Shown: positions 1 through 15,400 of the stretch, in pieces
Numbering within the stretch: position 1 is the first letter of the stretch
Layout: every line of letters begins with the position of its first letter
Notes under the pieces: generated by a model
Told to the model about the DNA's origin: nothing
Databases searched by the model: none
Seen by the model: only the letters and a program-made list of their open reading frames with translations
IMG/VR virus record: IMGVR_UViG_3300024980_000003
Span: 15-64,014 of that record
Origin: a virus
Taxonomy: Duplodnaviria; Caudoviricetes
Reading direction: 5' to 3' (one strand)
DNA length: 64,000 nt
Translations under genes and position numbers: made by a program

Positions 1-17
1 ACAACGCATTGATTTAA

Positions 18-66
18 TGGAGCCAATGGCGGGAGTCGAACCCGCGACCTACTGATTACGAATCAG
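18..66 (-). repeat. att core at the prophage/host junction: 3' half of tRNA-Thr(CGT), anticodon arm to CCA
   Basis: Minus strand CTGATTCGTAATCAGTAGGTCGCGGGTTCGACTCCCGCCATTGGCTCCA; no D-arm or 5' acceptor strand upstream. Confidence 0.9.
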
Positions 67-198
67 GACGGTTATTATTCTGGCCTGTTCTTGCTAGGAT
101 TTTAATGTGTCATCAAGTGCCTGTTTTACAGGGCTTGCAGCTTTTCGTCATTCCTTTCTGTTCCTTTTTGTGACGGTAATAATCTATTATATGTCACT

Positions 199-228
199 CC
201 CAAAGGCACTACGAAAGGCACTACGAAA
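199..228 (+). promoter_or_regulatory. Integrase arm-type binding sites (AAAGGCACTAC direct repeats)
   Basis: CCCAAAGGCACTACGAAAGGCACTACGAAA; the same tandem motif lies on the other att arm at 63763-63789. Confidence 0.75.
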
Positions 229-229
229 A

Positions 230-1426
230 ATGGCATTCACCGACAAGCAGATTAAAGGACTTAAACCCAAGGCAGCGCCCTATCGCCTTTTTGAAAAAGG
301 CCCCGACAAGGGGTTCGGCATCCAGGTAACAGCAAATGGCTCGGTATCGTTTTTCATCCAGTATGCCACAAACGGGAAGAAGCGATTTTATAACTTAGGA
401 CGCTATCCCTCGGTGACGCTTTATGATGCAAGGATAAAATGCCGGGAAATCAGGGCGATGATTGATAACGGCAGCGATCCGCAAGAACAACACCCCACGC
501 ACCGTTTTGGCGTGGTGCGCGACTTGTTTGACTACTATGTAAAAAAGATGCGCGACGATGGCAAGACTACGTGGGTTGATGTGCAAAATGGCCTGAATGC
601 CAACTGCCAAGATATTATGGCTATGCAAGCTAACAAGGTTGATCCTATCCATATTAGGAAAATCCTGCATACGATCATCAACAGAGGATCAGAGGTTCAG
701 GCAAACCGTATCAGGGCTTATTTGAACCGGGCGTTTAAGCTGGGCGTTTACCATGACAATGACCCGGCAAACCTATCGAGTTCAGTGATATTCCAACTCG
801 CTATGAATCCGGTGGAAGCGATACCCAAGAACACGAAAGCCGAAGCCGCCGGTGAGCGCAACCTGTCATTTGGCGAGATCAAGACGCTGTGGCATAGCAA
901 CGACATTGGCGAGCAGATGAGCATAGCCGCAAAGCTATTGTTGATTTACGGGTGCCGGATGATGGAGCTGTGCGGGGCCAAGAAAAACGAGTTTGATTTT
1001 GACGCGATGATCTGGACGATACCTTGGGAGCGCGTTAAAACCAGCAAGAAAAATAAGCGCCCTCACCTGTTGCCGATCACGCCGCTGGCAAAAACGCTAC
1101 TGGATCGGCAATTGCTCTATGCCTGGGACTCTGAGTATCTATTCCCCGGTCGGCATGACAATAGCAAACATATTCATCAAACCTCATTGAATCATGCCAT
1201 GAGGCGTGTATCCGGGCTTGATTCTTTCGATGTGAGAGCGTTACGTCGAACATGGAAAACCAGAACGGGCGAAGCTGGCATAGGTATTGAAGTCAGGAAT
1301 CTAATTCAGAACCATAGCCGAACGGATGTTAGCTCGGTGCATTATGACAAATGGAGTTATATCGCAGAAAAAAGGGCGGCTCTTGAGCGATGGGAGGCGC
1401 ATCTTATTGGAATGCTGAAGGATTAA
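230..1426 (+). CDS. int: Phage tyrosine integrase (P4-like, N-terminal arm-binding domain)
   Basis: Likely start MAFTDKQIKGLKPK; LGRYPSVTL arm domain; catalytic motifs YGCR, RALRRT, QNH, HYDKWSY; adjacent to tRNA att. Confidence 0.95.
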   Translation: MAFTDKQIKGLKPKAAPYRLFEKGPDKGFGIQVTANGSVSFFIQYATNGKKRFYNLGRYPSVTLYDARIKCREIRAMIDNGSDPQEQHPTHRFGVVRDLFDYYVKKMRDDGKTTWVDVQNGLNANCQDIMAMQANKVDPIHIRKILHTIINRGSEVQANRIRAYLNRAFKLGVYHDNDPANLSSSVIFQLAMNPVEAIPKNTKAEAAGERNLSFGEIKTLWHSNDIGEQMSIAAKLLLIYGCRMMELCGAKKNEFDFDAMIWTIPWERVKTSKKNKRPHLLPITPLAKTLLDRQLLYAWDSEYLFPGRHDNSKHIHQTSLNHAMRRVSGLDSFDVRALRRTWKTRTGEAGIGIEVRNLIQNHSRTDVSSVHYDKWSYIAEKRAALERWEAHLIGMLKD

Positions 1427-1493
1427 CAACCACCATCCAGCCGGATGATTTTAAACAGACTCGCGGCTTGTCCGATTGAGCGCATAGTTATAC
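1421..1493 (-). repeat. Degenerate/hybrid attC-like site 1
   Basis: Minus strand GTATAAC-TATGC-GCTCAAT-CGGAC is a canonical attC first half; the partner arm matches poorly; GATTAAC contains the int stop codon. Confidence 0.55.
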
Positions 1494-1503
1494 AGGGGTA
1501 AGA

Positions 1504-1770
1504 ATGATAACTGGGGTAGCTATTAGAAATGAAAATATGGTGATAAGCCTACCAAGACCGAATAGGCATTCAGATTGCTTTGCATACGCGCAAAGGATGG
1601 GAATTAATCTAAGCGAAAGCGAACTTGGAAAGAAAGCGGATCATCAGGGTTTTGTCACGCATACGGGCAAATTCCTAAACCGAGTTGAAGCGGCAAAATA
1701 TCTAAAACGAACAAAGCAAAAAACATTATTCCCAATTGGTGGAATAGCAATTAGCGAGGATTTGTGGTGA
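1504..1770 (+). CDS. Cassette ORF, small phage-type hypothetical protein
   Basis: 88 aa, RHSDC and QGFVTHTGKFLNRVEA motifs; bounded by GTTATAC and GCATAAC. Confidence 0.8.
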   Translation: MITGVAIRNENMVISLPRPNRHSDCFAYAQRMGINLSESELGKKADHQGFVTHTGKFLNRVEAAKYLKRTKQKTLFPIGGIAISEDLW

Positions 1771-1771
1771 T

Positions 1772-1868
1772 GCATAACGCCGTGTTAAGCGGAAAGCCGC
1801 CACACGGTTAATTTTAACGGCGCAAATGCGCTACATGGCGGCTTTTCCGCTTGAACTAAGAGTTATAC
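1772..1868 (-). repeat. attC-like site 2 (97 bp, complete)
   Basis: + strand GCATAAC-GCCGT-GTTAAGCGGAAAGCCGCCA...TGGCGGCTTTTCCGCTTGAAC-TAAGA-GTTATAC; perfect stem except one extra G and one extra T. Confidence 0.9.
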
Positions 1869-1879
1869 ATGGTGAAAAA

Positions 1880-2092
1880 ATGAACGAATGGCCTGGTGGT
1901 AAAAGACATGCAATGGATCAGGGAGAACACGAACGCTGGAATGATACGCATTATCCGGGAACGAGGCAGCTTTGTTGCAAGTGCGACGAACCGACCGGAC
2001 GTTGCGAAGAAGATTCTATCTATTCAGAAGACGGTGAGGATGGGCCGTTTTGTGAAGAGTGTTGGCGAGAGCATCCAGAATATGGTGTATAA
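1880..2092 (+). CDS. Cassette ORF, Cys-rich Zn-finger hypothetical protein
   Basis: CCKC...C...CEEC; flanks GTTATAC/GTATAAC are exact complements; the stop codon lies inside GTATAAC. Confidence 0.75.
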   Translation: MNEWPGGKRHAMDQGEHERWNDTHYPGTRQLCCKCDEPTGRCEEDSIYSEDGEDGPFCEECWREHPEYGV

Positions 2093-2123
2093 CGCCGAAT
2101 TAACGTTCGTCGGTACGAACTTT
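2087..2123 (-). repeat. attC-like half-site 3 (truncated)
   Basis: GTATAAC-GCCGA-ATTAAC...GGTACGAACTTT resembles the left part of site 4; no partner arm. Confidence 0.6.
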
Positions 2124-2358
2124 GCGGTGCGGGTTGACAGTAAAAAACGGAGTAGGCCAAAAACAGAACGAGGCAAAGTGTGGGTAAAATCAGCATCACA
2201 TCCGTTTTACGTTGGCATAAACGAGCGTGGCATATTTGAGACAAAAGAGGAGGCTGAACGCGCTAAAACAGAAACGTGGGAAATGATCGTAAATGTATGA
2301 CATAACAAACACATCTACTCGCGGCGACGTGGCTGACGGGGTATAATGGAGGGGCAAG

Positions 2359-2544
2359 ATGAGCACCGAAGAAGTTTTTGAAGAACTAGGGATAAGCGAG
2401 AAGGAGGCTCTGGAATATCTGAATCAATACACATTCGGCAGCAATGAGCTGACTGGGGCGGTCAGTATTGTGCGGTTCGCCGCGTGGTTTGCGTTTGAAT
2501 TGTGCAAAAATAACGAAACCAAAAAGGGTGTGCATAACGCCTAG
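2359..2544 (+). CDS. Cassette ORF, hypothetical protein
   Basis: 61 aa, GGAGG RBS, ends inside attC-like site 4. Confidence 0.7.
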   Translation: MSTEEVFEELGISEKEALEYLNQYTFGSNELTGAVSIVRFAAWFAFELCKNNETKKGVHNA

Positions 2545-2617
2545 TTAAGGCGTAGCGGCACGAACTTTAAACAACACCGCGATGCTGAACGGTGTCGCCT
2601 TGAATGACAGGCTATAT
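2532..2617 (-). repeat. attC-like site 4 (86 bp, one core mutated)
   Basis: GCATAAC-GCCTA-GTTAAGGCG...CGCCTTGAAT-GACAG-GCTATAT; the expected GTTATAT would complement ATATAAC at 2853. Confidence 0.8.
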
Positions 2618-2858
2618 GACACTAAAAATACTTGATATAAATGAACATGATTTGCATCTGGTCGGGCTAGAGTTAAACGCATGTCCATTTTGCGGAAGCA
2701 AAGCGTTTGCGACAGGCAGGTTTATCGAAACATCAGAGATATACCAGTATCGAGTCGCATGTATGAATCACCATTGCGGGGCAAGTGTCGCATATAATTC
2801 TCGTGATCGAAAAGATGCAGCAGATAACGCCATTAGAAATTGGCAAAAACGAATATAA
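2616..2858 (+). CDS. Cassette ORF, Lar-like restriction alleviation family protein
   Basis: LNACPFCGS...C...CGAS...AIRNWQKR pattern of the Lar_restr_allev family; stop in ATATAAC. Confidence 0.75.
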   Translation: MTLKILDINEHDLHLVGLELNACPFCGSKAFATGRFIETSEIYQYRVACMNHHCGASVAYNSRDRKDAADNAIRNWQKRI

Positions 2859-2908
2859 CGCCTGAATTCACCGGTCGCGCGGCGGTACGGTGGAATGAAA
2901 ATTTAAAA
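2853..2908 (-). repeat. Short degenerate attC-like site 5
   Basis: ATATAAC-GCCTGA-ATTCACCG...CGGTGGAAT (extra G)-GAAAA-TTTAAAA; right core decayed. Confidence 0.65.
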
Positions 2909-2923
2909 CTTTTGGAGAAAATA

Positions 2924-3259
2924 ATGGACTTTCAACGCTTGAGAAACCTGTCCAATGGACGATTGCACACCGAGATTGGCCACATCTACGAAGACCTGGA
3001 GACTATTACTGGCGAGCGCGGATTGATGACTCACATGCTTCCGAGAGCGGTAAGAGCGGTTAAGCCGTGGCTTCGCGAGCATGTAGCAGACCCACGTTTT
3101 TGGGATGGGGAATACGACACCGCGCACACCGGGGAGTACACATTGCCAGAGCCTACAGCAGAAGACAGGTTGGCGATGTTTGAGCGATATAAGGCGCAAC
3201 CGAACCCGCTGGAAGGTAAGGACGTGATTGCGGTGCAGGTGATGCACCTAACGCAATAA
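2924..3259 (+). CDS. Cassette ORF, hypothetical protein
   Basis: GGAG RBS, MDFQRLRNL start, ends inside site 6. Confidence 0.75.
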   Translation: MDFQRLRNLSNGRLHTEIGHIYEDLETITGERGLMTHMLPRAVRAVKPWLREHVADPRFWDGEYDTAHTGEYTLPEPTAEDRLAMFERYKAQPNPLEGKDVIAVQVMHLTQ

Positions 3260-3333
3260 TAACGGGACGCGGCGACGCGAATGAAATTTAACGAAAGATT
3301 AGGGCCGCGTTCCCGTTGATTTACGGGTTAGGC
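3246..3333 (-). repeat. attC-like site 6 (88 bp, complete)
   Basis: ACCTAAC-GCAAT-AATAACGGGACGCGGC...GCCGCGTTCCCGTTGATT-TACGG-GTTAGGC; extra T and G on the + strand. Confidence 0.9.
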
Positions 3334-3354
3334 TTAATACGGGAGAATAACATA

Positions 3355-3768
3355 ATGAGTTTTACAGATAACACAACAGGCAAATTTGAGTGGGGGACGC
3401 CACAAAGATTTTTTGATGAATTACACCGAGAATTTGGGTTTACGGTTGACGTTTGCGCTAATAAGGAGCTTGCAAAATGCCAAAAATACTACGACAAAGA
3501 AATGGACGGGCTGAAACAAGATTGGACGGGGGAGATTTGCTGGATGAACCCGCCCTATGGAGCCGCCATAGGTATGTGGCTCAAGAAAGCGGCCGAGAGC
3601 CGTGCGACTGTGGTTTGCCTTGTGCCATCGAGGACAGACAACAAGTGGTGGCACCAATGGGTAATGACGGCATCAGAGATCCGTTTCGTGAAAGGACGGC
3701 TACGGTTTCAGGGTGCAGGGGATGGAGCAAAATTTCCTTCAGCGATAGTAATTTTTAGAGGGGCATAA
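3355..3768 (+). CDS. Cassette ORF, phage DNA N6-adenine methyltransferase (Dam family)
   Basis: WGTPQ..FD.L..EFGFTVDVCA, WMNPPY, LVPSRTD..WW, EIRFVKGRLRF, FPSAIVIF; stop in GCATAAC. Confidence 0.9.
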   Translation: MSFTDNTTGKFEWGTPQRFFDELHREFGFTVDVCANKELAKCQKYYDKEMDGLKQDWTGEICWMNPPYGAAIGMWLKKAAESRATVVCLVPSRTDNKWWHQWVMTASEIRFVKGRLRFQGAGDGAKFPSAIVIFRGA

Positions 3769-3826
3769 CGCTGGCGTAACCGGCGCGTAGCGAAGCGGAG
3801 CGTCCGCGTTGACGCAAATGTTAGGC
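3763..3826 (-). repeat. attC-like site 7 (64 bp, complete)
   Basis: GCATAAC-GCTGG-CGTAACCGGCGC..GCGAAGC..GCGTCCGCGTTGACG-CAAAT-GTTAGGC; three unpaired bases, GAA loop. Confidence 0.9.
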
Positions 3827-3844
3827 CACGATTTTGGATGGAAA

Positions 3845-4051
3845 ATGAACGACTTTAATGACAACTACCCGAAGCAAAGAACAGGCAAAGAGTGCAAGAA
3901 AACGGATTGCGACAGGCATAAGGATTACGTTGCATGGCAATGCGGAACCGCTAGCCTTAATTTTTGCGTGGAATGCAAACATGCTCACGTTTCGCAGTAC
4001 AAGCGCAAGGGGCCTAACGCAATAATAACGGGACGCGGCGAAGCGTTATAA
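3845..4051 (+). CDS. Cassette ORF, Cys/His-rich hypothetical protein
   Basis: Flanks GTTAGGC (3820) and GCCTAAC (4012) are exact complements; the ORF reads into the next half-site. Confidence 0.65.
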   Translation: MNDFNDNYPKQRTGKECKKTDCDRHKDYVAWQCGTASLNFCVECKHAHVSQYKRKGPNAIITGRGEAL

Positions 4052-4052
4052 C
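4012..4052 (-). repeat. attC-like half-site 8 (copy of the left arm of site 6)
   Basis: CCTAACGCAATAATAACGGGACGCGGCGA is identical to 3247-3275, then breaks at GTTATAAC. Confidence 0.75.
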
Positions 4053-4121
4053 CACCACTTACGCGCAGTTCTCAGCAAATGCGCGTGTTTTCACGACATG
4101 ATTAATACAGGATGAAGTAGA

Positions 4122-4271
4122 ATGAACGAAGCAGAAAAGCTACGTGCGGCAATAAATACTATTGAATCGAGAGTAGTTGAGTTTTTGCTTGCCAGAATAT
4201 TTGGGAGAAAATTCTATTGCAACGATAGAACTTATGCTGAGTACAAAGGTAAAACATACCTGCTTAATTAA
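4122..4271 (+). CDS. Small hypothetical protein (49 aa, below the ORF-track cutoff)
   Basis: MNEAEKLRAAINT...KTYLLN; stop overlaps the 49-bp repeat. Confidence 0.55.
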   Translation: MNEAEKLRAAINTIESRVVEFLLARIFGRKFYCNDRTYAEYKGKTYLLN

Positions 4272-4313
4272 GCCAGTAATTCAGCCTCAATAGTCCGGCG
4301 CTTAGTCAAGCCA
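4265..4313 (+). repeat. 49-bp intergenic hairpin repeat, copy 1
   Basis: TAATTAAGCCAGTAATTCAGCCTCAA...GCGCTTAGTCAAGCCA; copy 2 lies 860 bp downstream. Confidence 0.85.
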
Positions 4314-4331
4314 CAACACACAAGGAACATA

Positions 4332-4598
4332 ATGAGTTTTTCAGAAGAAATAGTCTCAGCAGCAAGGCCAGCAAAAGGTTTTGATGTTGCGCCATACCGA
4401 GTAAAGAGTTTTCCCAAAGGCAACGGGTTAAGTTGTGTATGCAACGCTTACGGCTTTAATTGCACTACTTTTATTACGAAACCGGGGGCCGTCATGACGA
4501 CGCTTGATGATGCAACAGAGATTGCAAGACGATGGAACATGGGGAGCGGATTCCAAACCAGTATGCCGATTTTCACGACAATAGGAAAAACAGAATGA
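4332..4598 (+). CDS. Hypothetical protein
   Basis: AAGGA RBS; ATGA coupling to the next gene. Confidence 0.7.
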   Translation: MSFSEEIVSAARPAKGFDVAPYRVKSFPKGNGLSCVCNAYGFNCTTFITKPGAVMTTLDDATEIARRWNMGSGFQTSMPIFTTIGKTE

Positions 4599-4837
4599 CC
4601 TTACGCGATGAAATAATGAATTTGCCTTGTGATGATGATTGCTCGTTAATTTATATGATGGGTCATCATGAAGCCAGACATGCTGCCGCCGAGTTAGCAA
4701 TAAAGTACGACGCGGCGATGGCAGAAATTGAGCGCATTGCTGACAGGCTGGGGTCAGACAGAAACTATGAGCGCTGCATTGCCGTGGAAGATTTGCTTCA
4801 GGTGTTAGCTAATTTCGATCTTGGCGATGCAGGATAA
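4595..4837 (+). CDS. Hypothetical phage protein
   Basis: MTLRDEIMNL...GHHEARHAAAELA; translationally coupled. Confidence 0.7.
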   Translation: MTLRDEIMNLPCDDDCSLIYMMGHHEARHAAAELAIKYDAAMAEIERIADRLGSDRNYERCIAVEDLLQVLANFDLGDAG

Positions 4838-4840
4838 GAA

Positions 4841-5131
4841 ATGAAACCAGAAGATATTAAATACCCTAGAGATATATTTGCCGATTTAATTATAGGCAAT
4901 AGCCCGTATGCTTTTTATTTCTTTCAGTGGGTTCCATATCAAACCGATGCTAAACGATGGCGCTTAAAGCTATTTCATGACGTAAAGACATTTGATGGTA
5001 GAGAGGCATTTGGTATTTGGCCTAATGGAGGAAGTTGCGGCCCGTTTAAAGATGAGGAAGTGGAGTTTATACGGTTGAGCAAAGAGCAGTTTGGAAGCAC
5101 CTATCAAGACCCAAGAGATAAGGCTAATTAA
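4841..5131 (+). CDS. Hypothetical protein
   Basis: 96 aa; stop overlaps repeat copy 2. Confidence 0.7.
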   Translation: MKPEDIKYPRDIFADLIIGNSPYAFYFFQWVPYQTDAKRWRLKLFHDVKTFDGREAFGIWPNGGSCGPFKDEEVEFIRLSKEQFGSTYQDPRDKAN

Positions 5132-5173
5132 GCCAGTAACTCAGCCTCAACATTCCTGCGCTGAGTCAAGCCA
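5125..5173 (+). repeat. 49-bp intergenic hairpin repeat, copy 2
   Basis: TAATTAAGCCAGTAACTCAGCCTCAA...GCGCTGAGTCAAGCCA with ACTCAGC/GCTGAGT stem. Confidence 0.85.
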
Positions 5174-5193
5174 GCCAGCACAATATATAAAAG

Positions 5194-5227
5194 CAAAAGC
5201 CCATATCAAGTAAAGACTATGGGCTTA
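5194..5227. terminator. Hairpin between convergent early and lysis transcripts
   Basis: AAGCCCATA...TATGGGCTT with an upstream A-run (U-tract on the minus strand). Confidence 0.55.
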
Positions 5228-5319
5228 AAATTGACACTATGACTGATTGCAATCTCAGTATCATAGCGGCCTCATAAGAGGACTTAAAGCCTGATGCTTA
5301 TGCAGAGCAGGAAGGACAA

Positions 5320-5781
5320 TTAATCATACTGATCTAATCCGTATTGCCGTATTAAGTTTTTCAGTAAAGCAGCATAAGCCGGGTCGGTTGCATAGCCAGC
5401 CTTGGCGATTGCCTCAGCAAATTCACACCCATTTTCACACAGGAATGCTGGCTTATAGCGTTTGTTATTACGCAAGAACAATGCGTGATCGGCAATGCTA
5501 TCGGCCAGTGTTGCGTATTTACGAAAAGGAGCATTAACTTTGGTCTTAACGCCCTTGAAGTATTCCGTTGTCGGCATGAGTACCGAGTCGCCTTTCCATC
5601 TGGAATCAGCCTTAACGCCAAACAGGTTGCAAGCGTTCTTGGTAAGGGCCGATCTACCCCATCCAGATTCAAGTATTGCCTGAGCTATGGTTACGCTGGC
5701 CGGAACCGAATGCGCTTTGTGAGAGGCTTGAGCACCTGGTATCAGTGAGTTTAAAAATGCTGTGTTGCTTGGATTAACCAT
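5320..5781 (-). CDS. Endolysin, GH73 glucosaminidase (FlgJ-like)
   Basis: AQAILESGWG, NLFGVKA, TTEY, FRKY, GYATDPAY motifs. Confidence 0.93.
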   Translation of the reverse strand: MVNPSNTAFLNSLIPGAQASHKAHSVPASVTIAQAILESGWGRSALTKNACNLFGVKADSRWKGDSVLMPTTEYFKGVKTKVNAPFRKYATLADSIADHALFLRNNKRYKPAFLCENGCEFAEAIAKAGYATDPAYAALLKNLIRQYGLDQYD

Positions 5782-5989
5782 AATCGACCATATCAATAAT
5801 GCTTATCTTCTCAGCTCTTGTCATACCTTCCGTTTTTCTAGCATTGCAGCAGACAGCGCATGAGCATGTTTTTGGCGTATTAATAGCCATGCCGTGATAC
5901 TTAGGCTCACTGGTTAAATCCCTGCCATAATGAAAACGCCTGTTCTTTTTAAGGCGCTCACGGTGATGAAATTTTAATGCGCGACCCAC
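5774..5989 (-). CDS. Small basic Cys-rich hypothetical protein
   Basis: TPKTCSCAVCCNAR; overlaps neighbouring genes. Confidence 0.65.
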   Translation of the reverse strand: MGRALKFHHRERLKKNRRFHYGRDLTSEPKYHGMAINTPKTCSCAVCCNARKTEGMTRAEKISIIDMVDYG

Positions 5990-6237
5990 TATTTCCCCAA
6001 TGATCTAATAGCCGCTTTCAATATTGCTTTTCTGTTAATCAACTGAAAGACAAAGTTCGTTATATAAGTCAGTATGCCCAAGCAAACGCCGAACGCCCCT
6101 GCGTGGTGATCGAGTACCGCCAGCCAGTCTGATACCACAAGTCCTCCGCTGATTGAATACGCTAAGTATTGACACAAGCGCACGATGTACGCGGTTATCG
6201 GTTCTAAATGATCGTGAATACTTAGCGCCATGTTCAA
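5989..6237 (-). CDS. Putative holin
   Basis: Two hydrophobic segments and a basic C-terminus, upstream of the endolysin. Confidence 0.55.
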   Translation of the reverse strand: MNMALSIHDHLEPITAYIVRLCQYLAYSISGGLVVSDWLAVLDHHAGAFGVCLGILTYITNFVFQLINRKAILKAAIRSLGK

Positions 6238-6506
6238 TCCCTTGCGACTTGGTTTTTAAGCCACACTACCCCAAGCTCTAATAGCATTCGGATAACCGAT
6301 TCCGCTATAGGCTCAATCAAGTCCTCGAAGATGATTTCCAGATCAGCTAAAACCTTGTGCCGCTTGTCGGCTCCGGTGGCATCCGGCATGTCGGCATTGG
6401 CTAATTCAATGCGGTTCTTGATGCGTTCAAATAAATCGGCCTTGCCAATCAGCATGACGAACGTAGTTATGGCGGTCTGGATAATGGATTGAGTTAGGTT
6501 ATTCAT
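6234..6506 (-). CDS. Lysis-region hypothetical protein
   Basis: ATGADKRHKV motif; coupled to neighbours. Confidence 0.65.
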   Translation of the reverse strand: MNNLTQSIIQTAITTFVMLIGKADLFERIKNRIELANADMPDATGADKRHKVLADLEIIFEDLIEPIAESVIRMLLELGVVWLKNQVARD

Positions 6507-6627
6507 CGCATGAGATTCCGAGCATCACGCCGTCAGCTCGTGTTTGAGCGGTTGAGACAACGGGTGATAGGGTTGGGTGACAGGACGCGCACCCCGACAG
6601 CAAGGCCAGGATGAGCATGGATTTCAT
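6499..6627 (-). CDS. Small lipoprotein (42 aa), spanin candidate
   Basis: MKSMLILALLSG-C lipobox; coupled at both ends; absent from the ORF track. Confidence 0.65.
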   Translation of the reverse strand: MKSMLILALLSGCASCHPTLSPVVSTAQTRADGVMLGISCDE

Positions 6628-6827
6628 TACTTGTTAAAGCCGTCGATTTTTTGCGCGGGCGTCGCTTCCGGGATAAACACCGCAATGCCGCCAGCAACCA
6701 AGGTCAATACGCCCATCCAGTTGTCGAGTTGCACTTGAGGCACTTGGAAGATTCCGGCCAGGAACATGATAACGCGATAGTTAGCGGGTTCTTTGAGCCG
6801 CTCGAAGAGATAGATTAACTTACCCAT
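6627..6827 (-). CDS. Small membrane protein (holin-like)
   Basis: ERLKEP..Y followed by two hydrophobic helices; first gene of the lysis operon. Confidence 0.6.
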   Translation of the reverse strand: MGKLIYLFERLKEPANYRVIMFLAGIFQVPQVQLDNWMGVLTLVAGGIAVFIPEATPAQKIDGFNK

Positions 6828-6975
6828 GTAGTGTGTCTCCCGACAGTCTTGAGTTTGAATTATTCTAACACAAACAGACAGCAGATTTAAGCGAAACTTG
6901 CAATAGGTTTATGGATGAATGCGACCGCCCAGTGAAGTGCGTACGCTTTTCTTAGCACGAAACGCGAGGGCCGAT

Positions 6976-7134
6976 TTAATCAGCGTCCGCTTTCTGCTCT
7001 TGATCTTCTTTAACCTTCACTTTCATGGAGTCTTTAATGTATTCGGATAATGTAATTTTTTTAGAGTCGGCAATTTCTTTCATGGATTCCTTTAGCCATG
7101 CCGGGACAACTAAATATAATCTTTCTGATTTCAT
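6976..7134 (-). CDS. Ribbon-helix-helix (CopG-like) DNA-binding protein
   Basis: MKSERLYLVVPAWLKESMKEIADSKKITLSEYIK fits the RHH pattern. Confidence 0.75.
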   Translation of the reverse strand: MKSERLYLVVPAWLKESMKEIADSKKITLSEYIKDSMKVKVKEDQEQKADAD

Positions 7135-7183
7135 GCGTATAACCTTGCGTATGATTAATATTGATGTATAATTATACGCATGA
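7131..7183. promoter_or_regulatory. Divergent promoter/operator between RHH gene and tnpB
   Basis: 12-bp inverted repeat TCATGCGTATAA/TTATACGCATGA covers both start codons; TTGCGT-16-TATAAT ends 7 nt before the tnpB ATG. Confidence 0.7.
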
Positions 7184-8313
7184 TGATACAAAAATCCTAT
7201 AAATTCAAGTTCTACCCAAATGCTGCGCAAGCCGAACAGCTGCAAAAAGAATTCGGCTGTGCGCGGTGGACATGGAATCGTGGATTGATTGAACGGGATT
7301 ATGCGTATTCTCAATGGGGCGTTAGCCTGGGTTCTTTGCATGACATTGGAAAGAATATAAATCAGTACAAGAAGAATGATTATCCTTGGCTAAGTGATGC
7401 AACATCGAGCGTTATTCAGCAAAAGCTAATCGACCAAGATAAAGCGTTTAATAATTTCTTTAAAGGTCGGGCAGGTTTTCCAAAGTTCAAAAAGAAAAGC
7501 CATGCTCAAAGCATCCGCTATACGCTTGACCAGCGACAGGTTTTAAACAATTACCGGTCTGGTGAATTGTTAAAGCTGCCAAAATTGGGCGAATTAAAGA
7601 TTAAATGGTCACAAGTCCCAGGCGGCATACCCAAGATGGTCACGGTATCGAAGTCGGCAAGCGGATGTTATTTCGTCAGCTTCATGTGTGAGGTCGAGCA
7701 AGACTTAAAACCGATGACCGGCAAGGTGATCGGTATTGATGTTGGTATCAAGGATGTGGTCGTAACCAGTGACGGCTTTTATTCAGGCGCGCCCAGGTTT
7801 ACCTATAAGTACGCACGGCAATTGAAGAAAGCGCAACGGGTTTTAAGCCGTAAGAAAAAAGGCAGTAATGGATTTAAGAAGCAACGGATTGTGGTAGCAA
7901 AGATTCACGAAAAGATTGCAAACAGTAGAAAAGATTTTTTGCACAAAGTGACAACCAAGCTTGTGTCTGAAAATGATATTTTGTTTTTGGAAGATTTAAA
8001 CGTTTCCGGGATGCTCAAGAATCGTAAGCTATCAAAAGCGGTTGCGGATGTGGGCATTTTTGAACTCAATAGGCAAATCGAGTACAAATCTCAGTGGTAC
8101 GGCAAGCAGGTTGTTAAAATCAGCCGTTGGGAGCCTACGACGAAGAAGTGTAGTTCATGCGGGAATATTCGCATTATGAAATTATCGCAACGTACTTATG
8201 AGTGCGAATGTGGTTTAGTAATGTGCCGCGATCTTAACGCAGCGCATAATATTAAGGCGGCGGGGAACGTCGTTATGAGTGGAGCCGTACACCAAATTGA
8301 TAAAGCCGCATGA
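7180..8313 (+). CDS. tnpB: TnpB RNA-guided endonuclease (IS200/IS605 OrfB), no tnpA
   Basis: YKFKFYPN, FGCARWTWN, GIDVG, LEDL, CSSC/CECG, RDLNAA: intact RuvC D-E-D. Confidence 0.95.
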   Translation: MMIQKSYKFKFYPNAAQAEQLQKEFGCARWTWNRGLIERDYAYSQWGVSLGSLHDIGKNINQYKKNDYPWLSDATSSVIQQKLIDQDKAFNNFFKGRAGFPKFKKKSHAQSIRYTLDQRQVLNNYRSGELLKLPKLGELKIKWSQVPGGIPKMVTVSKSASGCYFVSFMCEVEQDLKPMTGKVIGIDVGIKDVVVTSDGFYSGAPRFTYKYARQLKKAQRVLSRKKKGSNGFKKQRIVVAKIHEKIANSRKDFLHKVTTKLVSENDILFLEDLNVSGMLKNRKLSKAVADVGIFELNRQIEYKSQWYGKQVVKISRWEPTTKKCSSCGNIRIMKLSQRTYECECGLVMCRDLNAAHNIKAAGNVVMSGAVHQIDKAA

Positions 8314-10920: not shown

Positions 10921-12180
10921 ATGACAAAAACGATACGAAAAGCCTTTAAATTTAGGTTAAAAATTACACCTGAAACCGATGAAAAATTAAATAATTTCGT
11001 TGGTGGATGTCGCTTTGTCTGGAACAAGTCGTTGGCTCTGAATCTGGATAGATTAAACAACAAAGAGCCTATTTTGTGGTATCAGGAGCTTAATTTTTGG
11101 GCAACAATTTGGAAGCAGTCTAATGAATACGGTTTTCTAAGCACTGTTCCTTCTCAGGCACTACAGCAAAAACTAAAAGACCTGGATAAAGCGTTCAGTG
11201 ATTGCTTTGATAAGAATCAGCCATTAAAGCGTTGCCCTGTATTCAAGAAAAAAGGACTATCCGATAGCATACGATTCCCTCAAGGCTTTAAGATCGATCA
11301 AGAAAATAGTCAGATTTTCCTGCCCAAAATAGGCTTTGTGAAATATCGCAATAGCCGCAAGGTAATTGTAGAGCCTAAGAATATCACTGTAAGCCGCAAA
11401 GGTAAGCACTGGTACGCTTCTATTCAGGTTGAGTACGACAAAATAGATATGCCTCATAAATCAACGTCAATCGTTGGTATTGATATGGGCGTTAAGCAGT
11501 TCTCTACTCTATCTGACGGCACTATATACCAGCCATTAAATAGTTTTAAAGGTAAAGCTGAAAAGTTAGCCAAGCTTCAACGAAAGCTAAAAAACAAAAA
11601 GAAATTCTCAAGTAATTGGAAAAAAGTAAAAACAAAAATAACAAAGTGCCATGAAGAAATAGCCAACGCTCGAAAAGATTACCTTCACAAAGTATCAACT
11701 GAAATCTGCGAAAACCAAGCCGTGATAGTCGTTGAAGATTTGAAGGTAAAGAATATGAGCAAGTCGGCAAAAGGCAACCATGAAAAGCATGGAAAAAACG
11801 TTGCTCAAAAATCAGGATTGAACAAGTCAATTCTCGATCAAGGGTGGGGCATGTTTTTTCAAATGCTGGACTATAAGCAAGCCTGGAATGGTGGCATGGT
11901 TCTCAAAGTGCCTGCGCACCATACAAGTCAAACTTGCCCATGTTGCCAGCATGTAGCCAAAGAAAACAGACTCACACAAGCTGACTTTGTTTGTGTCGAT
12001 TGCGGCTACAGCAATAACGCCGATATAGTTGGAGCATTGAATGTATTAAGCCGGGGACACCGGCAGTTAGCCTGCCTAGCGAGTGGTGAAGTAATACCAC
12101 CGGCAACAGGAACCAGTGGTAAGCGGCGACGCAAGATCACTTCTGAGAAATCAGGAATCACCATTCCTTTAGGGCGGTGA
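10921..12180 (+). CDS. tnpB: TnpB of an IS605/IS1341-type element, no tnpA
   Basis: AFKFRL, GIDMG, VVEDL, KSGLNKSILDQGWG, TSQTCPCC, CVDC, NADIVGA: intact RuvC. Confidence 0.95.
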   Translation: MTKTIRKAFKFRLKITPETDEKLNNFVGGCRFVWNKSLALNLDRLNNKEPILWYQELNFWATIWKQSNEYGFLSTVPSQALQQKLKDLDKAFSDCFDKNQPLKRCPVFKKKGLSDSIRFPQGFKIDQENSQIFLPKIGFVKYRNSRKVIVEPKNITVSRKGKHWYASIQVEYDKIDMPHKSTSIVGIDMGVKQFSTLSDGTIYQPLNSFKGKAEKLAKLQRKLKNKKKFSSNWKKVKTKITKCHEEIANARKDYLHKVSTEICENQAVIVVEDLKVKNMSKSAKGNHEKHGKNVAQKSGLNKSILDQGWGMFFQMLDYKQAWNGGMVLKVPAHHTSQTCPCCQHVAKENRLTQADFVCVDCGYSNNADIVGALNVLSRGHRQLACLASGEVIPPATGTSGKRRRKITSEKSGITIPLGR

Positions 12181-12230: not shown

Positions 12231-12401
12231 ATGACCAATAAAACAGATGGCAACTATTTCCTTACCATGCTAATGGTTTGCGTAGCTCCACCTGTTCTGT
12301 TCCTGCAATGGCTATTCCTTGGTGATAAGTTCGGTCATGGAAAAGCCATTGTCTTTGTGGTGACTATGTTCCTGTTCGGGTCGGCCTTCTTCTTTAATTA
12401 A
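12231..12401 (+). CDS. Small two-TM membrane protein (56 aa, not in the ORF track)
   Basis: AAGGA RBS; two hydrophobic helices; convergent with the giant gene. Confidence 0.65.
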   Translation: MTNKTDGNYFLTMLMVCVAPPVLFLQWLFLGDKFGHGKAIVFVVTMFLFGSAFFFN

Positions 12402-15400
12402 TTGAAGTAAGGGTGCGACCTTTCCACCGCCATGCGTGACACTTCGTTAGATCGTTGCATCAGTGCGTTAATCCTATCGCGCTTATCAGTAGCACTTAGA
12501 TTGCTGCGGTAAATTACATCCACCTGCGCCCTGAGTCTGCTCAACTGCTTGCCGGAAGCTTCCAGTTGACGGCGCTTGCTCAACTTGTCGGCATTATCGG
12601 TCATTAGCTCGTTGGCCTTGTCGATATTGCCTTCTTTCTTGTACGCGTTAATCGTCTTATGGATTTGATTGACTTCGTTCAGCATATCGTAAAACTCAGT
12701 ACCGTATTTGGTGTGCAGCGTGGGACGCTCCTGATAGAACGCTTTCACGACCGGCAAACTGTCAATCCTCATCGCTGGCTGATCCGGCATCCCCGATAAC
12801 TGCCTAACCATCATATCCGATGCGCCCAAGGCGTACATGCCTAATGCGCCAAGATAGCCATGCAGTAAATGCTCCAGACGTTTGGGCGATGCACCTAATG
12901 CTTCCGGCAAGGACGCGCTTAACGCTCGCATGGTTTCGCTAGTGTATTCGTTATAACGTGCGCTCGGCAATTTGCCTTCGTCGGCCATGCCTTCAATCGC
13001 CCTGCCGGTAAACATATCCTTGTTGGAGTACAGTTCGATGAACGGTTTGAATAGCTGCGGTACTGGATTGAAAGCCAAGGTATCGCTTGCGCCATGCCCC
13101 ATGCGTTCGGCGTAAGTTTTCAAACTGTCTTTGCCGATCAACGCTCTCGCTGAACGCTCAGGAACAGTGCCAAAGATCAAGCCTAACTCGAACGGTTTAG
13201 GTATCCTAAAGTGTTGATTTCCAAAGAAGAAATGCCAGTAGGTGTCTTGATCCCACGGTTCCAAAGCTTCGTAATCATCGTTATCCGAATTGAGTGCCAG
13301 CAATGCCAAAGAGAACATGGCAATCGATAAGCCTTTCGCCAGAATCATTTTCCGCGCTTCCTTGGTCTGACCTGCTTTCGCCAATCGATACAGGCCAACC
13401 AATCGGGCATTGAAGAACGGCAGCATGTCACTCATGGCCCGGATCAGCGTAAACGATCCCTGCATCGAAAAGTCCATCAGGTCTTTGGCTTCAAACAGGT
13501 ATTTGGCTTTTTCTGCCCCCGCGCGTTTAGCGTTTTCAAGAATCGCTTCACGGCTGGCGTTTTCAATCGCATCGCCCACGGACCGGTACATTTCCCAATA
13601 CTTCTTCGGGGTGTCGAGAATGGAATCTTTAAAGCCTTGAACGTCCTTAATGCCGCGCCTTCTCAGTGCCGCATCCATCGACTCCCTGGCCGCATCCGGG
13701 TTGCTGTAGTTGCCATAGCCGCCCTGGAATGACGCCCCGGCAAACATCATATCGACATAGCCACCTTCTTCGTTGAAAGACTTAATCGCCCCATGAATCG
13801 AGTCAACACCGAGCTTAAAGCCTTTTTCTTCGGCAATCGTCCAGGAGTGCATGGCGTCACGGATAAAGTTTCTGGCCATGAACGTCGGGTCGGCGGTCAC
13901 AGCACCGGTCAGCAAATGCTTCATGTAGCGCATTGGCTTGAAGATGCCGCCGAACGGGATTTGATTTACGGCCGTCAATGAAGTCAGCAGCATGGCATCG
14001 TTGACTTTGTAGTATTCCGACTTACCATCACGCATAACCCTAACCACATCGGGATCAGTCGGCGCTTGCATGGCCCACATCTTGGCAATACCACTCGTCA
14101 AATCAGACGGCATGGCCTCGACGATTTCTTTCGGCAAGCCCGATTCCAGCATCAGTTTTTTAACCTGCTCCTTGGGGATCAGTGCCGCCTTTAATTCAAC
14201 TCTCTGGATAGCCTCGACAAAGCGCGAGCCTTCCAGATTATTCAGCGTTTTGTTCAAGGCGTCGTTCTTCATCGACGCATCGATCAAATGCGCCCAATTC
14301 TGCATCATGTTGCCGAGTGGGTCGCTCATCGGGTTATCGCCGCCTTTCAGCATTTTGATACCGGAGGTTTGGTGGGTCAGTCCACCCTTACCGCTTGGGC
14401 CTGATTTCTTGCCTTCGATCAGCCGGTAAAACGGGATATAGTCGGCGCTCTCGAACAGCTTACGCGCTTCCGCATCCACCAGTCCGGCCTCTTGCGCCAA
14501 GTCCAGCACCGAGCTATTCATGGCGGCGATGTCATCAGCCACACCTTGATAGTCGTCTTGTTCCAATTTCAGCAAGGCATCGATTTCGTCACGACTGAAA
14601 TTGTTCTCTTTGCCTTCCTTAAACAATCGGTCTGCTCTGCGCCCGACCATCCAGGCAGTGAAGTTTTCCAAGTCATCCTTGACCGGCTGCAATAGCTCGG
14701 CAAACGACTTGCTGCCGTCTTTTTTCTGGATAATGCCGCCCTCCCATTTCGGCGCACCATGCAACAGCAACGCTTGCATCGTTGAGCTTGAGCCGGTTGA
14801 TAGTCTTGCACTGATATAGCCTGATACCGAATGCGCCACATCGCCGAGGATTTCTTTCTCTGCGCGCTTAATGCCGATGAACTTATCGAATATGCCCTGC
14901 TCCAGTTGCGGCTTCATTTCATCCCATTTCTGCCGGATGGCTTGAACATTAGCTTTCAGCCCGAGACTGATAATGTCGGTGATGGCTTGAGATAGCGTTT
15001 TCTTCGGGCCGAGTCCGGCCTTGCGTTTAGCTTCTTTGATAACATCGCTATCGACAGCCCTACTATACTTCACTCCGGTTTTATCGCCGCCCTTGGCTTC
15101 ATAGTCATAGGCATCACCATACCAGCGTTCGGTTTTGGGACGGTTTTTATTCTTGGCGTCTTTGCTCAGTCCTACTTTGTCGCCGCCGTAGTTCTCGTAA
15201 TCGTAAGCGTTGCCTTGCCATTTGTCGGCGTTTCTCGGTGCAGGAATATGATTCATTTCCTTGCCATTGAATAGCACAATCACATCACTGTCTTGAATGT
15301 CTGCGGTGGCGCTTGGTGGCGTGGATTTGCGTTGCTCGGCGGTTAGTTCTTGTCGGGCTTGTGTGTTTCTTGACTCAACCTCTCCAGCTAGTCTTTTGTA

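What the first reader, a model, noticed from the sequence alone, without database searches (positions are those of the whole stretch)
1772..3826. All cassette ORFs are inverted relative to canonical attC polarity
Seen: the extra bases (G in the L box, T deeper in the stem) lie on the right arm of the + (coding) strand, e.g. GTTAAG vs CTTGAAC, AATAAC vs GTTGATT, CGTAAC vs GTTGACG. Established: in classical cassettes (aadA7, VCR) the coding strand has the extra C in the first arm (TAAC-N5-xxTCAA), and G/T are extrahelical on the non-coding bottom strand. Here the minus strand reads canonically (GTATAAC-TCTTA-GTTCAAG...), so the ORFs sit on the recombinogenic strand. Stop codons still fall within TAAC boxes (1424, 2090, 2856, 3766). 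Inference: a mirror-image cassette system. These genes would be silent from Pc if placed in a host integron but are expressed in the phage early direction. This may bear on the unsolved origin of cassettes.
Basis: partly seen in the sequence, partly recalled or inferred. Interest (0 to 1): 0.8.

Follow-up and report, generated by a model that had tools for sequence, protein, structure and literature searches.

The report
Back-to-front integron cassettes in a phage
A temperate phage, probably of the methane-oxidising bacterium Methylobacter, carries a row of integron-type swappable gene cassettes built the wrong way round, with each folding recombination site in front of its gene rather than behind it, which suggests that phages keep their own mirror-image cassette pool.

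Summary
Five attC sites lie between small + strand genes: B 1772-1868, D 2532-2617, E 2853-2908, F 3246-3333 and G 3763-3826. The genes include Lar, DUF7736 and Dam.

[quoted passage not shown] That is the published mark of the recombinogenic bottom strand.
- **Independent model.** A covariance model built only from attCs next to true integron integrases in two Methylobacter genome bins calls all five on the + strand. Nothing else in the 64 kb scores.
- **Controls, same method.** Genes follow the bottom strand in 22 of 24 decided intervals in viral contigs. In seven integrase-linked chromosomal arrays, 20 of 29 have the classical opposite layout.
- **Module boundaries.** Blocks shared between phages begin at the 5' box of one site and end at the 5' box of the next, so the unit is [attC, then gene].
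- **No phage enzyme.** The phage has no integron integrase, so a host enzyme is inferred.

Not tested: recombination and expression. Phage attC clusters are already published; I did not find the reversed layout in the papers I searched. Earlier notes of this scan report the same layout in other phage genomes.

The parts
1..66 (-). 3' fragment of a tRNA gene; the anticodon reads as Thr by eye. It forms the left attachment-site core of the prophage.
   Evidence: Sequence. Bases 8-66 match three places in a Methylobacter genome bin at 95-96% identity. ARAGORN calls no whole tRNA because the window cuts it.
230..1426 (+). Phage (P4-type) tyrosine integrase, not an integron integrase. Its stop TAA lies in a TAAC box.
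   Evidence: Pfam Arm-DNA-bind_3 and Phage_integrase, and PHROG 1. No match to TIGR02249 anywhere in the record; in NCBIfam it is far below the cut-offs.
1421..1494 (+). Site A: a TAAC box and a GTTATAC box without a proper stem. It is a remnant or entry site, and a mosaic junction lies at its 3' box.
   Evidence: Fold; not found by the model. Junction 1493>2089 appears in L001 and in contigs of runs X3 and X4.
1504..1770 (+). ORF1, 88 aa, no family. Replaced by another gene in relatives.
1772..1868 (+). attC B, with the bottom strand on +.
   Evidence: Fold with G and T bulges on the 3' arm. Model: 44.1 bits on + against 23.7 on -. Near-identical sites occur in a Methylobacter integron (L050:1722-1817) and in viral contigs.
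1880..2092 (+). ORF2, 70 aa, cysteine-rich. It travels together with attC B.
   Evidence: Window 1768-2013 matches L015 at 83% from the 5' box of B into ORF2, while the flanks differ.
2086..2140 (+). Site C: a remnant with an intact 5' box and a broken stem. The block shared with L001 starts here.
   Evidence: shared block 2089-3319.
2082..2300 (+). ORF3 (start uncertain), followed by ORF4 at 2359-2544.
   Evidence: ORF list, codon score, conserved in L001.
2532..2617 (+). attC D, with the bottom strand on +. Its 3' box has one mismatch (GCT instead of GTT).
   Evidence: Model: 28.3 bits on +, no hit on -; sequence.
2604..2858 (+). Lar-like restriction-alleviation gene.
   Evidence: Pfam PF14354, E 1.9e-9; PHROG 599.
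2853..2908 (+). attC E: short, with a degenerate 3' box. Bottom strand on +.
   Evidence: Model: 17.6 bits, E 0.024, on + only. G bulge seen by eye.
2924..3259 (+). DUF7736 gene.
   Evidence: Pfam PF24875, E 1.1e-16.
3246..3333 (+). attC F, the best site. Bottom strand on +.
   Evidence: Model: 59.3 bits on + against 28.0 on -; fold. A near-identical site occurs in a Methylobacter bin (L052:443-530).
3355..3768 (+). Dam-type DNA N6-adenine methyltransferase.
   Evidence: Pfam PF05869, E 1.1e-28; PHROG 111.
3763..3826 (+). attC G, with the bottom strand on +.
   Evidence: Model: 24.8 bits on +, no hit on -; fold.
3818..4051 (+). ORF8, cysteine-rich. It reads into site H.
   Evidence: a homologue occurs in L052.
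4013..4112 (+). Site H: a hybrid. Its first 29 bases equal the 5' part of F and are joined to another site type. In run X4, 3246>4013 is joined, which removes F, Dam, G and ORF8.
   Evidence: Sequence; joint 'skips 766, both 26'.
4122..5131 (+). Further small + strand genes (ORF9-12) separated by a different repeat (4262-4325 and 5123-5190). These also vary between relatives.
   Evidence: Not attC by the model.

Best explanation
This is an integrase-less cluster of genuine integron attC sites (a CALIN) in a temperate phage that probably infects Methylobacter. The sites belong to the same sequence and structure family as the attCs of chromosomal integrons in that bacterial family. They are turned round relative to the genes: the strand that folds into the recombinogenic bottom-strand hairpin is the coding strand. 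Each mobile unit is therefore [attC, ribosome-binding site, gene, stop], with the crossover triplet AA|C at or near the previous gene's stop codon.

Inferred mechanism: a host integron integrase folds and cuts the + strand hairpins and swaps such units between phages and, now and then, into the host's integron. There they face the cassette promoter and stay silent. In the phage they are read in one direction with int, as an operon of accessory genes that includes a Lar-like restriction-alleviation gene, a Dam-type DNA methyltransferase and several small unknowns.

Shown: site structure, polarity, family membership, reversed gene orientation, and cassette-wise variation with boundaries at the sites.

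Inferred: the enzyme, the strand actually cut, expression, and the benefit.
For: **1. Polarity rule.** Nivina 2016 (PMC5027507, passages read) states that extrahelical bases lie on the same arm as 5'-AAC-3' in the top strand and on the opposite arm in the bottom strand. Bouvier 2009 (PMC2727003, passages) states that G sits in L'' and that cleavage is in the bottom-strand R' box. On the window's + strand the AAC is in the 5' box and the G/T bulges are on the 3' arm. The + strand of all 5 sites is rich in purines (0.52-0.59), as published for bottom strands.

**2. Model R1.** It was built from 10 attCs that flank TIGR02249-positive integrases (L050 at 383 bits, G005:C79 at 473 bits, cut-off 265). 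It finds 5 sites, all on the + strand.

**3. Polarity control.** In 7 of 7 integrase-linked arrays the model's strand equals the intI coding strand, and the array lies at the 5' side of intI.

**4. Gene orientation by one codon-score method.**
- Viral contigs: 22 same strand as the bottom strand, 2 opposite, 7 unclear, of 31 intervals.
- Genome-bin contigs found by the B-type pattern, without an integrase in the locus: 11 same, 0 opposite, 3 unclear.
- Integrase-linked arrays: 9 same (one of them an IS110 transposase), 20 opposite, 9 unclear.
- Other chromosomal arrays of the family: 6 same, 34 opposite, 10 unclear.
- Fisher test: p = 4e-6 and 2e-11.
- Vibrio-type arrays: 2 same, 8 opposite, 15 unclear.

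**5. Pfam-named genes on the bottom strand.** Lar, DUF7736 and Dam in the window. Elsewhere a C5 methylase, two N6_N4 methylases, an ANT antirepressor and a RyR domain.

**6. Module boundaries.**
- L017 against L031: homology starts at the 5' box of a B-type site, runs through the site (94%) and a methylase gene, and stops 18 bases into the next site.
- Window against L015: the same for B plus ORF2.
- Window against L001: the shared block starts at 2089.
- Run X4 joins 3246 to 4013 across F, Dam, G and ORF8.

**7. Covariation.** 90% of cells paired against 71.5% in shuffles; 15 of 22 pairs show compensatory change.

**8. No phage integron integrase.** None in the window's record or in 5 of 5 related viral records, two of them complete with terminal repeats.
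Against: - No experiment shows that any integrase acts on these sites or which strand it cuts.
- Several junctions do not sit at the 5' box. Site A's junction is at its 3' box. The F site of L001 is a hybrid that changes inside the loop. The 3246>4013 joint lies in a 26-29-base direct repeat, so plain homologous recombination would explain it equally well.
- The 5' box and its neighbourhood form the longest conserved stretch of these sites. Homologous exchange would therefore also tend to break there.
- D and E have degenerate 3' boxes, E scores only E 0.024, and A, C and H are remnants. Part of the array may be decaying.
- The orientation calls rest on a simple codon score with many 'unclear' intervals. 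The Pfam checks outside the window were made only on ORFs that the score had already chosen.
- The genome-bin contigs assigned to four different phyla or genera are probably phage contigs that were mis-binned, so they are not independent of the viral set.
- Host assignment rests on bin labels and a 59-base tRNA match.
Confidence: 0.65

Rival explanations
1. The sites are real attC relatives, but in phages they are no longer integrase substrates. They act only as conserved repeats at which ordinary homologous or microhomology recombination shuffles genes, as with other boundary sequences of mosaic phages. On this view the shared polarity is inherited from one ancestral capture.
For: - Hybrid sites change inside the loop (L001 F', site H).
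- The 3246>4013 joint lies within a 26-base repeat.
- A junction lies at the 3' box of site A.
- The phage records encode no integron integrase.
Against: - The hairpin with its bulges is kept by compensatory changes across 41 rows, which argues for selection on the fold rather than on a repeat.
- Reversed arrays occur in unrelated viral contigs and at different genome positions. For example, L049 has one among homologues of window genes at 43-50 kb.
- Five junctions sit at the 5' box, where the integrase would cut the + strand.
Confidence: 0.2
2. The hairpins serve the phage mainly at the RNA level, as stabilisers, processing sites or weak terminators between genes of one operon. That role, not recombination, would fix their orientation relative to the genes.
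For: - Every site lies between a stop codon and the next ribosome-binding site on the transcribed strand.
- A review reports that attC sites have been proposed as weak terminators (PMC8876359, passages; also Qi 2023).
Against: - No T-run follows the stems, and the terminator scan finds no excess (8 found, 7.4 expected).
- An RNA role does not explain conservation of the R boxes, the unpaired spacers and the G bulge, which are the integrase's recognition features.
- It also does not explain the cassette-wise gene turnover.
Confidence: 0.08
3. The array is a piece of a host chromosomal integron picked up by accident and now decaying. On this view the orientation relative to the genes has no meaning.
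For: - Qi 2023 reports fragments of chromosomal integrons in Vibrio phages (outline and passages).
- Remnant sites A, C and H are present.
- A Methylobacter integron (L050) contains reversed cassettes with B-type and F-type sites.
Against: - Host arrays are mostly classical (20 of 29 and 34 of 40 decided intervals), while viral arrays are 22 of 24 reversed.
- The genes are typical phage genes: methylases, Lar and an antirepressor.
- The arrays differ cassette by cassette between phages that are 92-98% identical on both sides.
Confidence: 0.07

Closest known systems
CALINs (clusters of attC sites lacking an integron integrase) in phage genomes; Qi, Rajabal, Ghaly, Tetu and Gillings 2023, PMC9892861
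   Same: Several attC sites lie in a row in a phage without intI. DNA methyltransferase genes are among the cassettes, and dependence on a bacterial integrase is presumed (section 3.4 read).
   Different: That paper calls the one-direction layout 'most typical of bacterial arrays'. In the outline, the passages and section 3.4 that I read, it does not report genes lying on the attC bottom strand; I did not see the figures or supplements. Here the reversal is systematic and is shared by other viral contigs.
Chromosomal integrons of the host's bacterial family (record titles name Methylobacter), for example L050 and G005:C79
   Same: They share the same attC family. B-type and F-type sites are near-identical, and the model built on these integrons scores the phage sites at 18-59 bits.
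   Different: They have an integron integrase, and most of their cassettes carry the gene on the top strand. The phage has neither feature.
Classical integron cassette (gene followed by its attC, expressed from Pc), as described in Bouvier 2009 and Nivina 2016
   Same: R boxes, L boxes, an extrahelical G/T, unpaired spacers, a variable loop, and stop codons overlapping a TAAC box.
   Different: The gene sits on the other strand relative to the asymmetric features. The attC therefore precedes its gene, and in an integron the unit would face Pc.
Cassettes that carry their own promoter, such as toxin-antitoxin cassettes of large chromosomal integrons (the review PMC8876359 was seen; that some of these are oriented against the array is recalled, not checked)
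   Same: These are cassettes whose expression does not depend on Pc.
   Different: The phage cassettes show no promoter of their own (scan). They start with a ribosome-binding site directly after the 3' box, as parts of one operon.

Membership tests
Integron attC site (59-base element) | Terminal inverted 7-base boxes RYYYAAC and GTTRRRY that pair (R box) | tested here: met
   B, F and G have both boxes. D has one mismatch and E a degenerate 3' box. The AAC/GTT pairs are kept in 39-40 of 41 aligned rows.
Integron attC site (59-base element) | L box of about 3 pairs with an extrahelical G on one arm, usually a further extrahelical T, and unpaired spacers of 4-7 bases between the R and L boxes | tested here: met
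   5 of 5 sites have the G bulge after a 3-pair L box. B and F also have a T bulge. Spacers are 5-6 bases.
Integron attC site (59-base element) | Structure conserved while sequence varies (compensatory changes); length 57-142 bases | tested here: met
   15 of 22 pairs show changes on both sides; 90% of cells are paired against 71.5% in shuffles (the alignment was fitted to the model). Site lengths are 56-97 bases; the length range is quoted from Bouvier 2009.
Integron attC site (59-base element) | Same family as sites that flank a true integron integrase | tested here: met
   Model R1, built from 10 integrase-linked sites, scores the window sites at 17.6-59.3 bits.
Integron attC site (59-base element) | Recombined by an integron integrase as a folded bottom strand | not testable with these tools
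   This needs a conjugation or excision assay.
CALIN | Two or more attC sites on one strand less than 4 kb apart, with no integron integrase nearby | tested here: met
   Five sites lie within 2.1 kb, all on the + strand. There is no TIGR02249 match in the 64-kb record. The definition is from Cury 2016 and Qi 2023.
Classical integron gene cassette | Gene on the attC top strand with its attC downstream, so that insertion at attI puts it under Pc | tested here: not met
   The genes are on the bottom strand, and the shared modules are [attC, then gene].
Complete integron | intI gene with an adjacent attI and Pc | tested here: not met
   No integron integrase is present. The only recombinase is a P4-type phage integrase.

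The most novel reading that the evidence does not exclude
Phages of integron-bearing bacteria keep a separate, mirror-image pool of integron cassettes of the form [attC, then gene], which they trade by borrowing the host's integrase.

The reversal would do two things at once. First, it keeps phage accessory genes (here a Lar-like restriction-alleviation gene, a DNA methyltransferase and small unknowns) silent whenever they land in a host integron. Second, it places the recombinogenic strand on the coding strand. If genes run with the replication fork, that strand is the lagging-strand template, so phage arrays would shuffle fastest exactly when the phage replicates and the SOS response switches the integrase on. 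Host integrons would then also serve as silent stores of phage genes.
Probability: 0.35. Interest if true: 0.85.

Novelty: new variant of a known kind. Interest (0 to 1): 0.72.

Why it matters
Integrons are taught as one-way devices: strand choice by the integrase guarantees that a captured gene faces away from the promoter's back and is expressed.

A family of cassettes built the other way round, concentrated in phages and using the same attC family as the host's integron, would have three consequences:
- The same recombination machinery would serve two gene pools with opposite reading directions.
- Phage and host could exchange genes through it without expressing each other's cargo.
- The strand on which an attC becomes attached to a gene would not be fixed, which bears on how cassettes arise.

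It also gives a practical rule for annotation. In phage attC clusters, look for the gene downstream of the site on the bottom strand.

Tried and rejected
- **Public phage records.** blastn and megablast of the array and of 24 kb of the phage gave one weak unrelated hit and no hit.
- **Genome contig scan with the phage integrase.** No relative found.
- **Strict hand-written scanner.** It found only B and F in the window and gave 0-5 chance hits per strand in shuffles. I replaced it with the covariance model.
- **Longest-ORF rule for orientation.** Too ambiguous for small cassettes. I replaced it with a codon score.
- **PHROG and Pfam scans of the reversed cassettes of L050 and of the unnamed window ORFs.** Nothing informative.
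- **Promoter and terminator scan of 1-7200.** No excess over shuffles, and no promoter in front of the cassettes.
- **RNA evidence.** No RNA holder listed among the sequencing runs, so expression could not be examined.
- **Linking a site type to one gene.** B-type and F-type sites stand in front of many different genes, so site type alone does not define a cassette. Only high-identity modules were informative.
- **Idea that attC polarity follows one genome-wide strand (replication or packaging).** Rejected. In L049 a second array is co-oriented with genes whose homologues lie on the window's - strand.
- **Idea that each cassette was flipped by top-strand insertion.** Rejected. That would give mixed attC polarity within an array, yet in every locus the best-scoring strand of each site is the same; the few opposite-strand hits are lower-scoring hits on the same sites.
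- **Literature searches for the reversed layout.**, plus passages of eight papers, gave no description of it. Figures were not seen, no supplement list was opened, and subscription journals are not covered.
Full report
**What the window is**

The window is an IMG/VR virus record of 64 kb. It starts inside the 3' end of a tRNA gene. Bases 8-66 match three places in a Methylobacter genome bin at 95-96% identity. A P4-type phage integrase follows at 230-1426 (Pfam Arm-DNA-bind_3 and Phage_integrase, PHROG 1).

Next comes a run of small + strand genes up to 5131. From 5320 on, lysis and structural genes lie on the - strand. Among the small genes:
- a Lar-like restriction-alleviation gene at 2604-2858
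- a DUF7736 gene at 2924-3259
- a Dam-type methyltransferase at 3355-3768

Of the 10 - strand ORFs of this stretch that I submitted, 0 match Pfam.

A relative, L001, has a 94% identical integrase and is a complete genome with terminal repeats. This confirms a free temperate phage of about 64 kb.

**The sites**

Between the genes lie imperfect hairpins with the anatomy of integron attC sites. Each has a 5' box ending in TAAC, a 5-6-base unpaired spacer, a 3-pair L box, a stem and a variable loop. The mirror image follows, ending in GTTA...

Single-strand DNA folds of B and F put a bulged G and a bulged T on the 3' arm of the + strand. On the - strand the bulges become C and A on the 5' arm. D, E and G show the same G bulge by eye. 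D and E have degenerate 3' boxes. A, C and H are remnants or hybrids.

Three other stops lie just outside the box.

**Which strand is the bottom strand**

Nivina et al. 2016 (PMC5027507, passages read) give the rule. [quoted passage not shown] They lie on the opposite arm in the recombinogenic bottom strand, which is cut within that AAC. Bouvier et al. 2009 (PMC2727003, passages) say the same for the G of the L'' box. By this rule the + strand is the bottom strand. The + strand of all five sites is also purine-rich (0.52-0.59), as published for bottom strands.

To avoid relying on a rule alone, I looked for the same sites next to real integron integrases. A 24-letter pattern from site B found five genome-bin contigs. 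Two carry the label Methylobacter.

- L050 holds an integron integrase (TIGR02249, 383 bits, cut-off 265). An array of attCs lies at the 5' side of that gene. It includes a B-type site and two F-type sites.
- A second Methylobacter bin has an integrase at 473 bits with an array beside it.

I built model R1 from ten of these integrase-linked sites. They were oriented as the integrase's coding strand, which in the usual divergent layout is the bottom strand.

Searched over the whole window without filters, R1 gives these scores on the + strand:

| Site | + strand (bits) | - strand (bits) |
|---|---|---|
| F | 59.3 | 28.0 |
| B | 44.1 | 23.7 |
| D | 28.3 | none |
| G | 24.8 | none |
| E | 17.6 (E 0.024) | none |

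The next hit anywhere in the 64 kb scores 12.3 bits (E 0.89).

Five further integrase-linked arrays came from the same bacterial family. Together with the first two, 7 of 7 have the model's strand equal to the integrase strand, and the array lies at the integrase's 5' side.

Cury 2016 notes that integrons with an inverted integrase exist. In both Methylobacter arrays, however, the integrase-proximal genes read away from intI. This fits the usual layout.

**Gene orientation compared**

I applied one codon-score rule, trained on the phage's long genes, to every interval between neighbouring model hits.

| Set | Same strand as bottom strand | Opposite (classical) | Unclear |
|---|---|---|---|
| Viral contigs, including the window (31 intervals) | 22 | 2 | 7 |
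| Genome-bin contigs found by the B-type pattern, no integrase in the locus | 11 | 0 | 3 |
| Seven integrase-linked arrays | 9 | 20 | 9 |
| Other chromosomal arrays of the family | 6 | 34 | 10 |
| Vibrio-type arrays that matched my first pattern (longest-ORF rule) | 2 | 8 | 15 |

Notes on these counts:
- One of the 9 'same' calls in the integrase-linked arrays is an IS110 transposase, not a cassette gene.
- Among the other chromosomal arrays, L076 repeats L052, and L084 and L085 look like the same array in two genomes.
- Viral against integrase-linked arrays gives Fisher p = 4e-6. Viral against the chromosomal arrays gives p = 2e-11.

So the method has no built-in bias towards the bottom strand. 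The host's own arrays are mostly classical, and the phage arrays are reversed.

Genes with Pfam names on the bottom strand in other viral arrays are a C5 methylase, two N6_N4 methylases, an ANT antirepressor and a RyR domain. These ORFs were chosen by the score before the scan, so this is not a blind test.

**What the mobile unit is**

Relatives differ cassette by cassette.
- L001 and contigs of two other studies replace 1494-2088 (ORF1, B, ORF2) with a 207-base gene.
- One contig joins 3246 to 4013, which removes F, Dam, G and ORF8.
- Further swaps occur at 4103-4269 and at 4825-5772.

High-identity modules show where the units end.
- Between L017 and L031, homology begins at the 5' box of a B-type site. 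It runs through the site (94%) and a methylase gene, and ends 18 bases into the next site. That next site is of a different type in the two phages.
- Between the window and L015, the shared block is B plus ORF2, with unrelated genes upstream and different sites downstream.

The unit is therefore [attC, then gene]. This is what cleavage at AA|C of the + strand would produce, and it is the opposite of the classical [gene, then attC].

Against a purely integrase-driven picture:
- the junction at site A lies at its 3' box;
- the F site of L001 changes partner inside the loop;
- the 3246>4013 joint lies within a 26-29-base direct repeat, so homologous recombination would explain it as well.

**Is the fold under selection**

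There are 41 aligned rows from the window and nine viral loci. Two of these rows are the weaker - strand hits of B and F.
- 90% of cells pair, against 71.5% in shuffles (0 of 500 shuffles reach the observed value).
- With the partner slid by 1-3 columns, 27-43% pair.
- 15 of 22 pairs show compensatory change.

The alignment was fitted to the model, so these numbers lean towards it.

**Who does the cutting**

Neither the window's record nor 5 of 5 related viral records encode an integron integrase. The attC family is widespread in the host's family: 40 of 61 genomes sampled have hits. Both Methylobacter bins carry integron integrases. A host enzyme is the natural candidate, but this is inference.

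One Methylobacter integron (L050) has classical cassettes next to intI. Further out it has several reversed cassettes with phage-type sites, whose genes face the integrase. This is what exchange with the phage pool would leave behind. No identical unit shared by phage and host was found.

**Comparison with what is known**

attC clusters without an integrase in phages, methyltransferase cassettes among them, and their recombination by IntI1 were published by Qi et al. 2023. I read the outline, passages and section 3.4. That paper does not mention genes lying on the bottom strand.

Five full-text searches and passages of eight papers gave no description of the reversed layout. Figures were not seen, no supplement list was opened, and journals outside the library are not covered.

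Earlier notes of this scan report the same reversed layout in at least five other phage genomes. They are unchecked AI notes, and I do not count them as evidence. They do mean the scan has seen this before on other DNA.

**Verdict**

The feature is a reversed-polarity attC cluster, a new variant of a known kind. Recombination, strand use and expression remain to be shown.

Noticed in passing
window 7180-8313 and 10921-12180 (+): Two IS605-family OrfB/TnpB genes (OrfB_IS605 plus the Cas12f1-like TNB domain) sit inside the phage. I did not see the first in L001: the part of L001 aligned ends at window 6910.
   Followed up: no
window 4262-4325 and 5123-5190: A second kind of intergenic repeat follows ORF9 and ORF12. 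It begins at the stop codon inside a TTAATTAAGCC motif and has a 7-pair stem. The model does not call it an attC. Gene swaps in other samples end exactly here (joints at 4265 and 4269).
   Followed up: partly
L001:13985-15060: The relative carries a phage tRNA-Met. Behind it lies a second small cluster: a truncated F-type site, a B-type site and a minimal 17-base 'box to box' junction (a 5' box directly joined to a 3' box). All are co-oriented with + strand genes. The window has no tRNA-Met.
   Followed up: partly
L049:5998-7748: In a related phage contig (binned as Ohtaekwangia, probably mis-binned) an attC array sits among homologues of window genes at 43-50 kb. It is again co-oriented with those genes. 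Polarity therefore follows gene direction and not one genome strand.
   Followed up: partly
L061:2417-3748 (-): An IS110-family transposase is inserted within the attC array of a Methylobacter chromosomal integron, on the bottom strand.
   Followed up: no
window 12398-21157 (-): A single open reading frame of 2919 codons. I did not examine it.
   Followed up: no
G005 (genome of L052), many contigs: The Methylobacter bin has attC-model hits on at least ten contigs besides its integron. It also has three copies of the phage's tRNA attachment core on one contig. This suggests several integrated elements with attC clusters.
   Followed up: no
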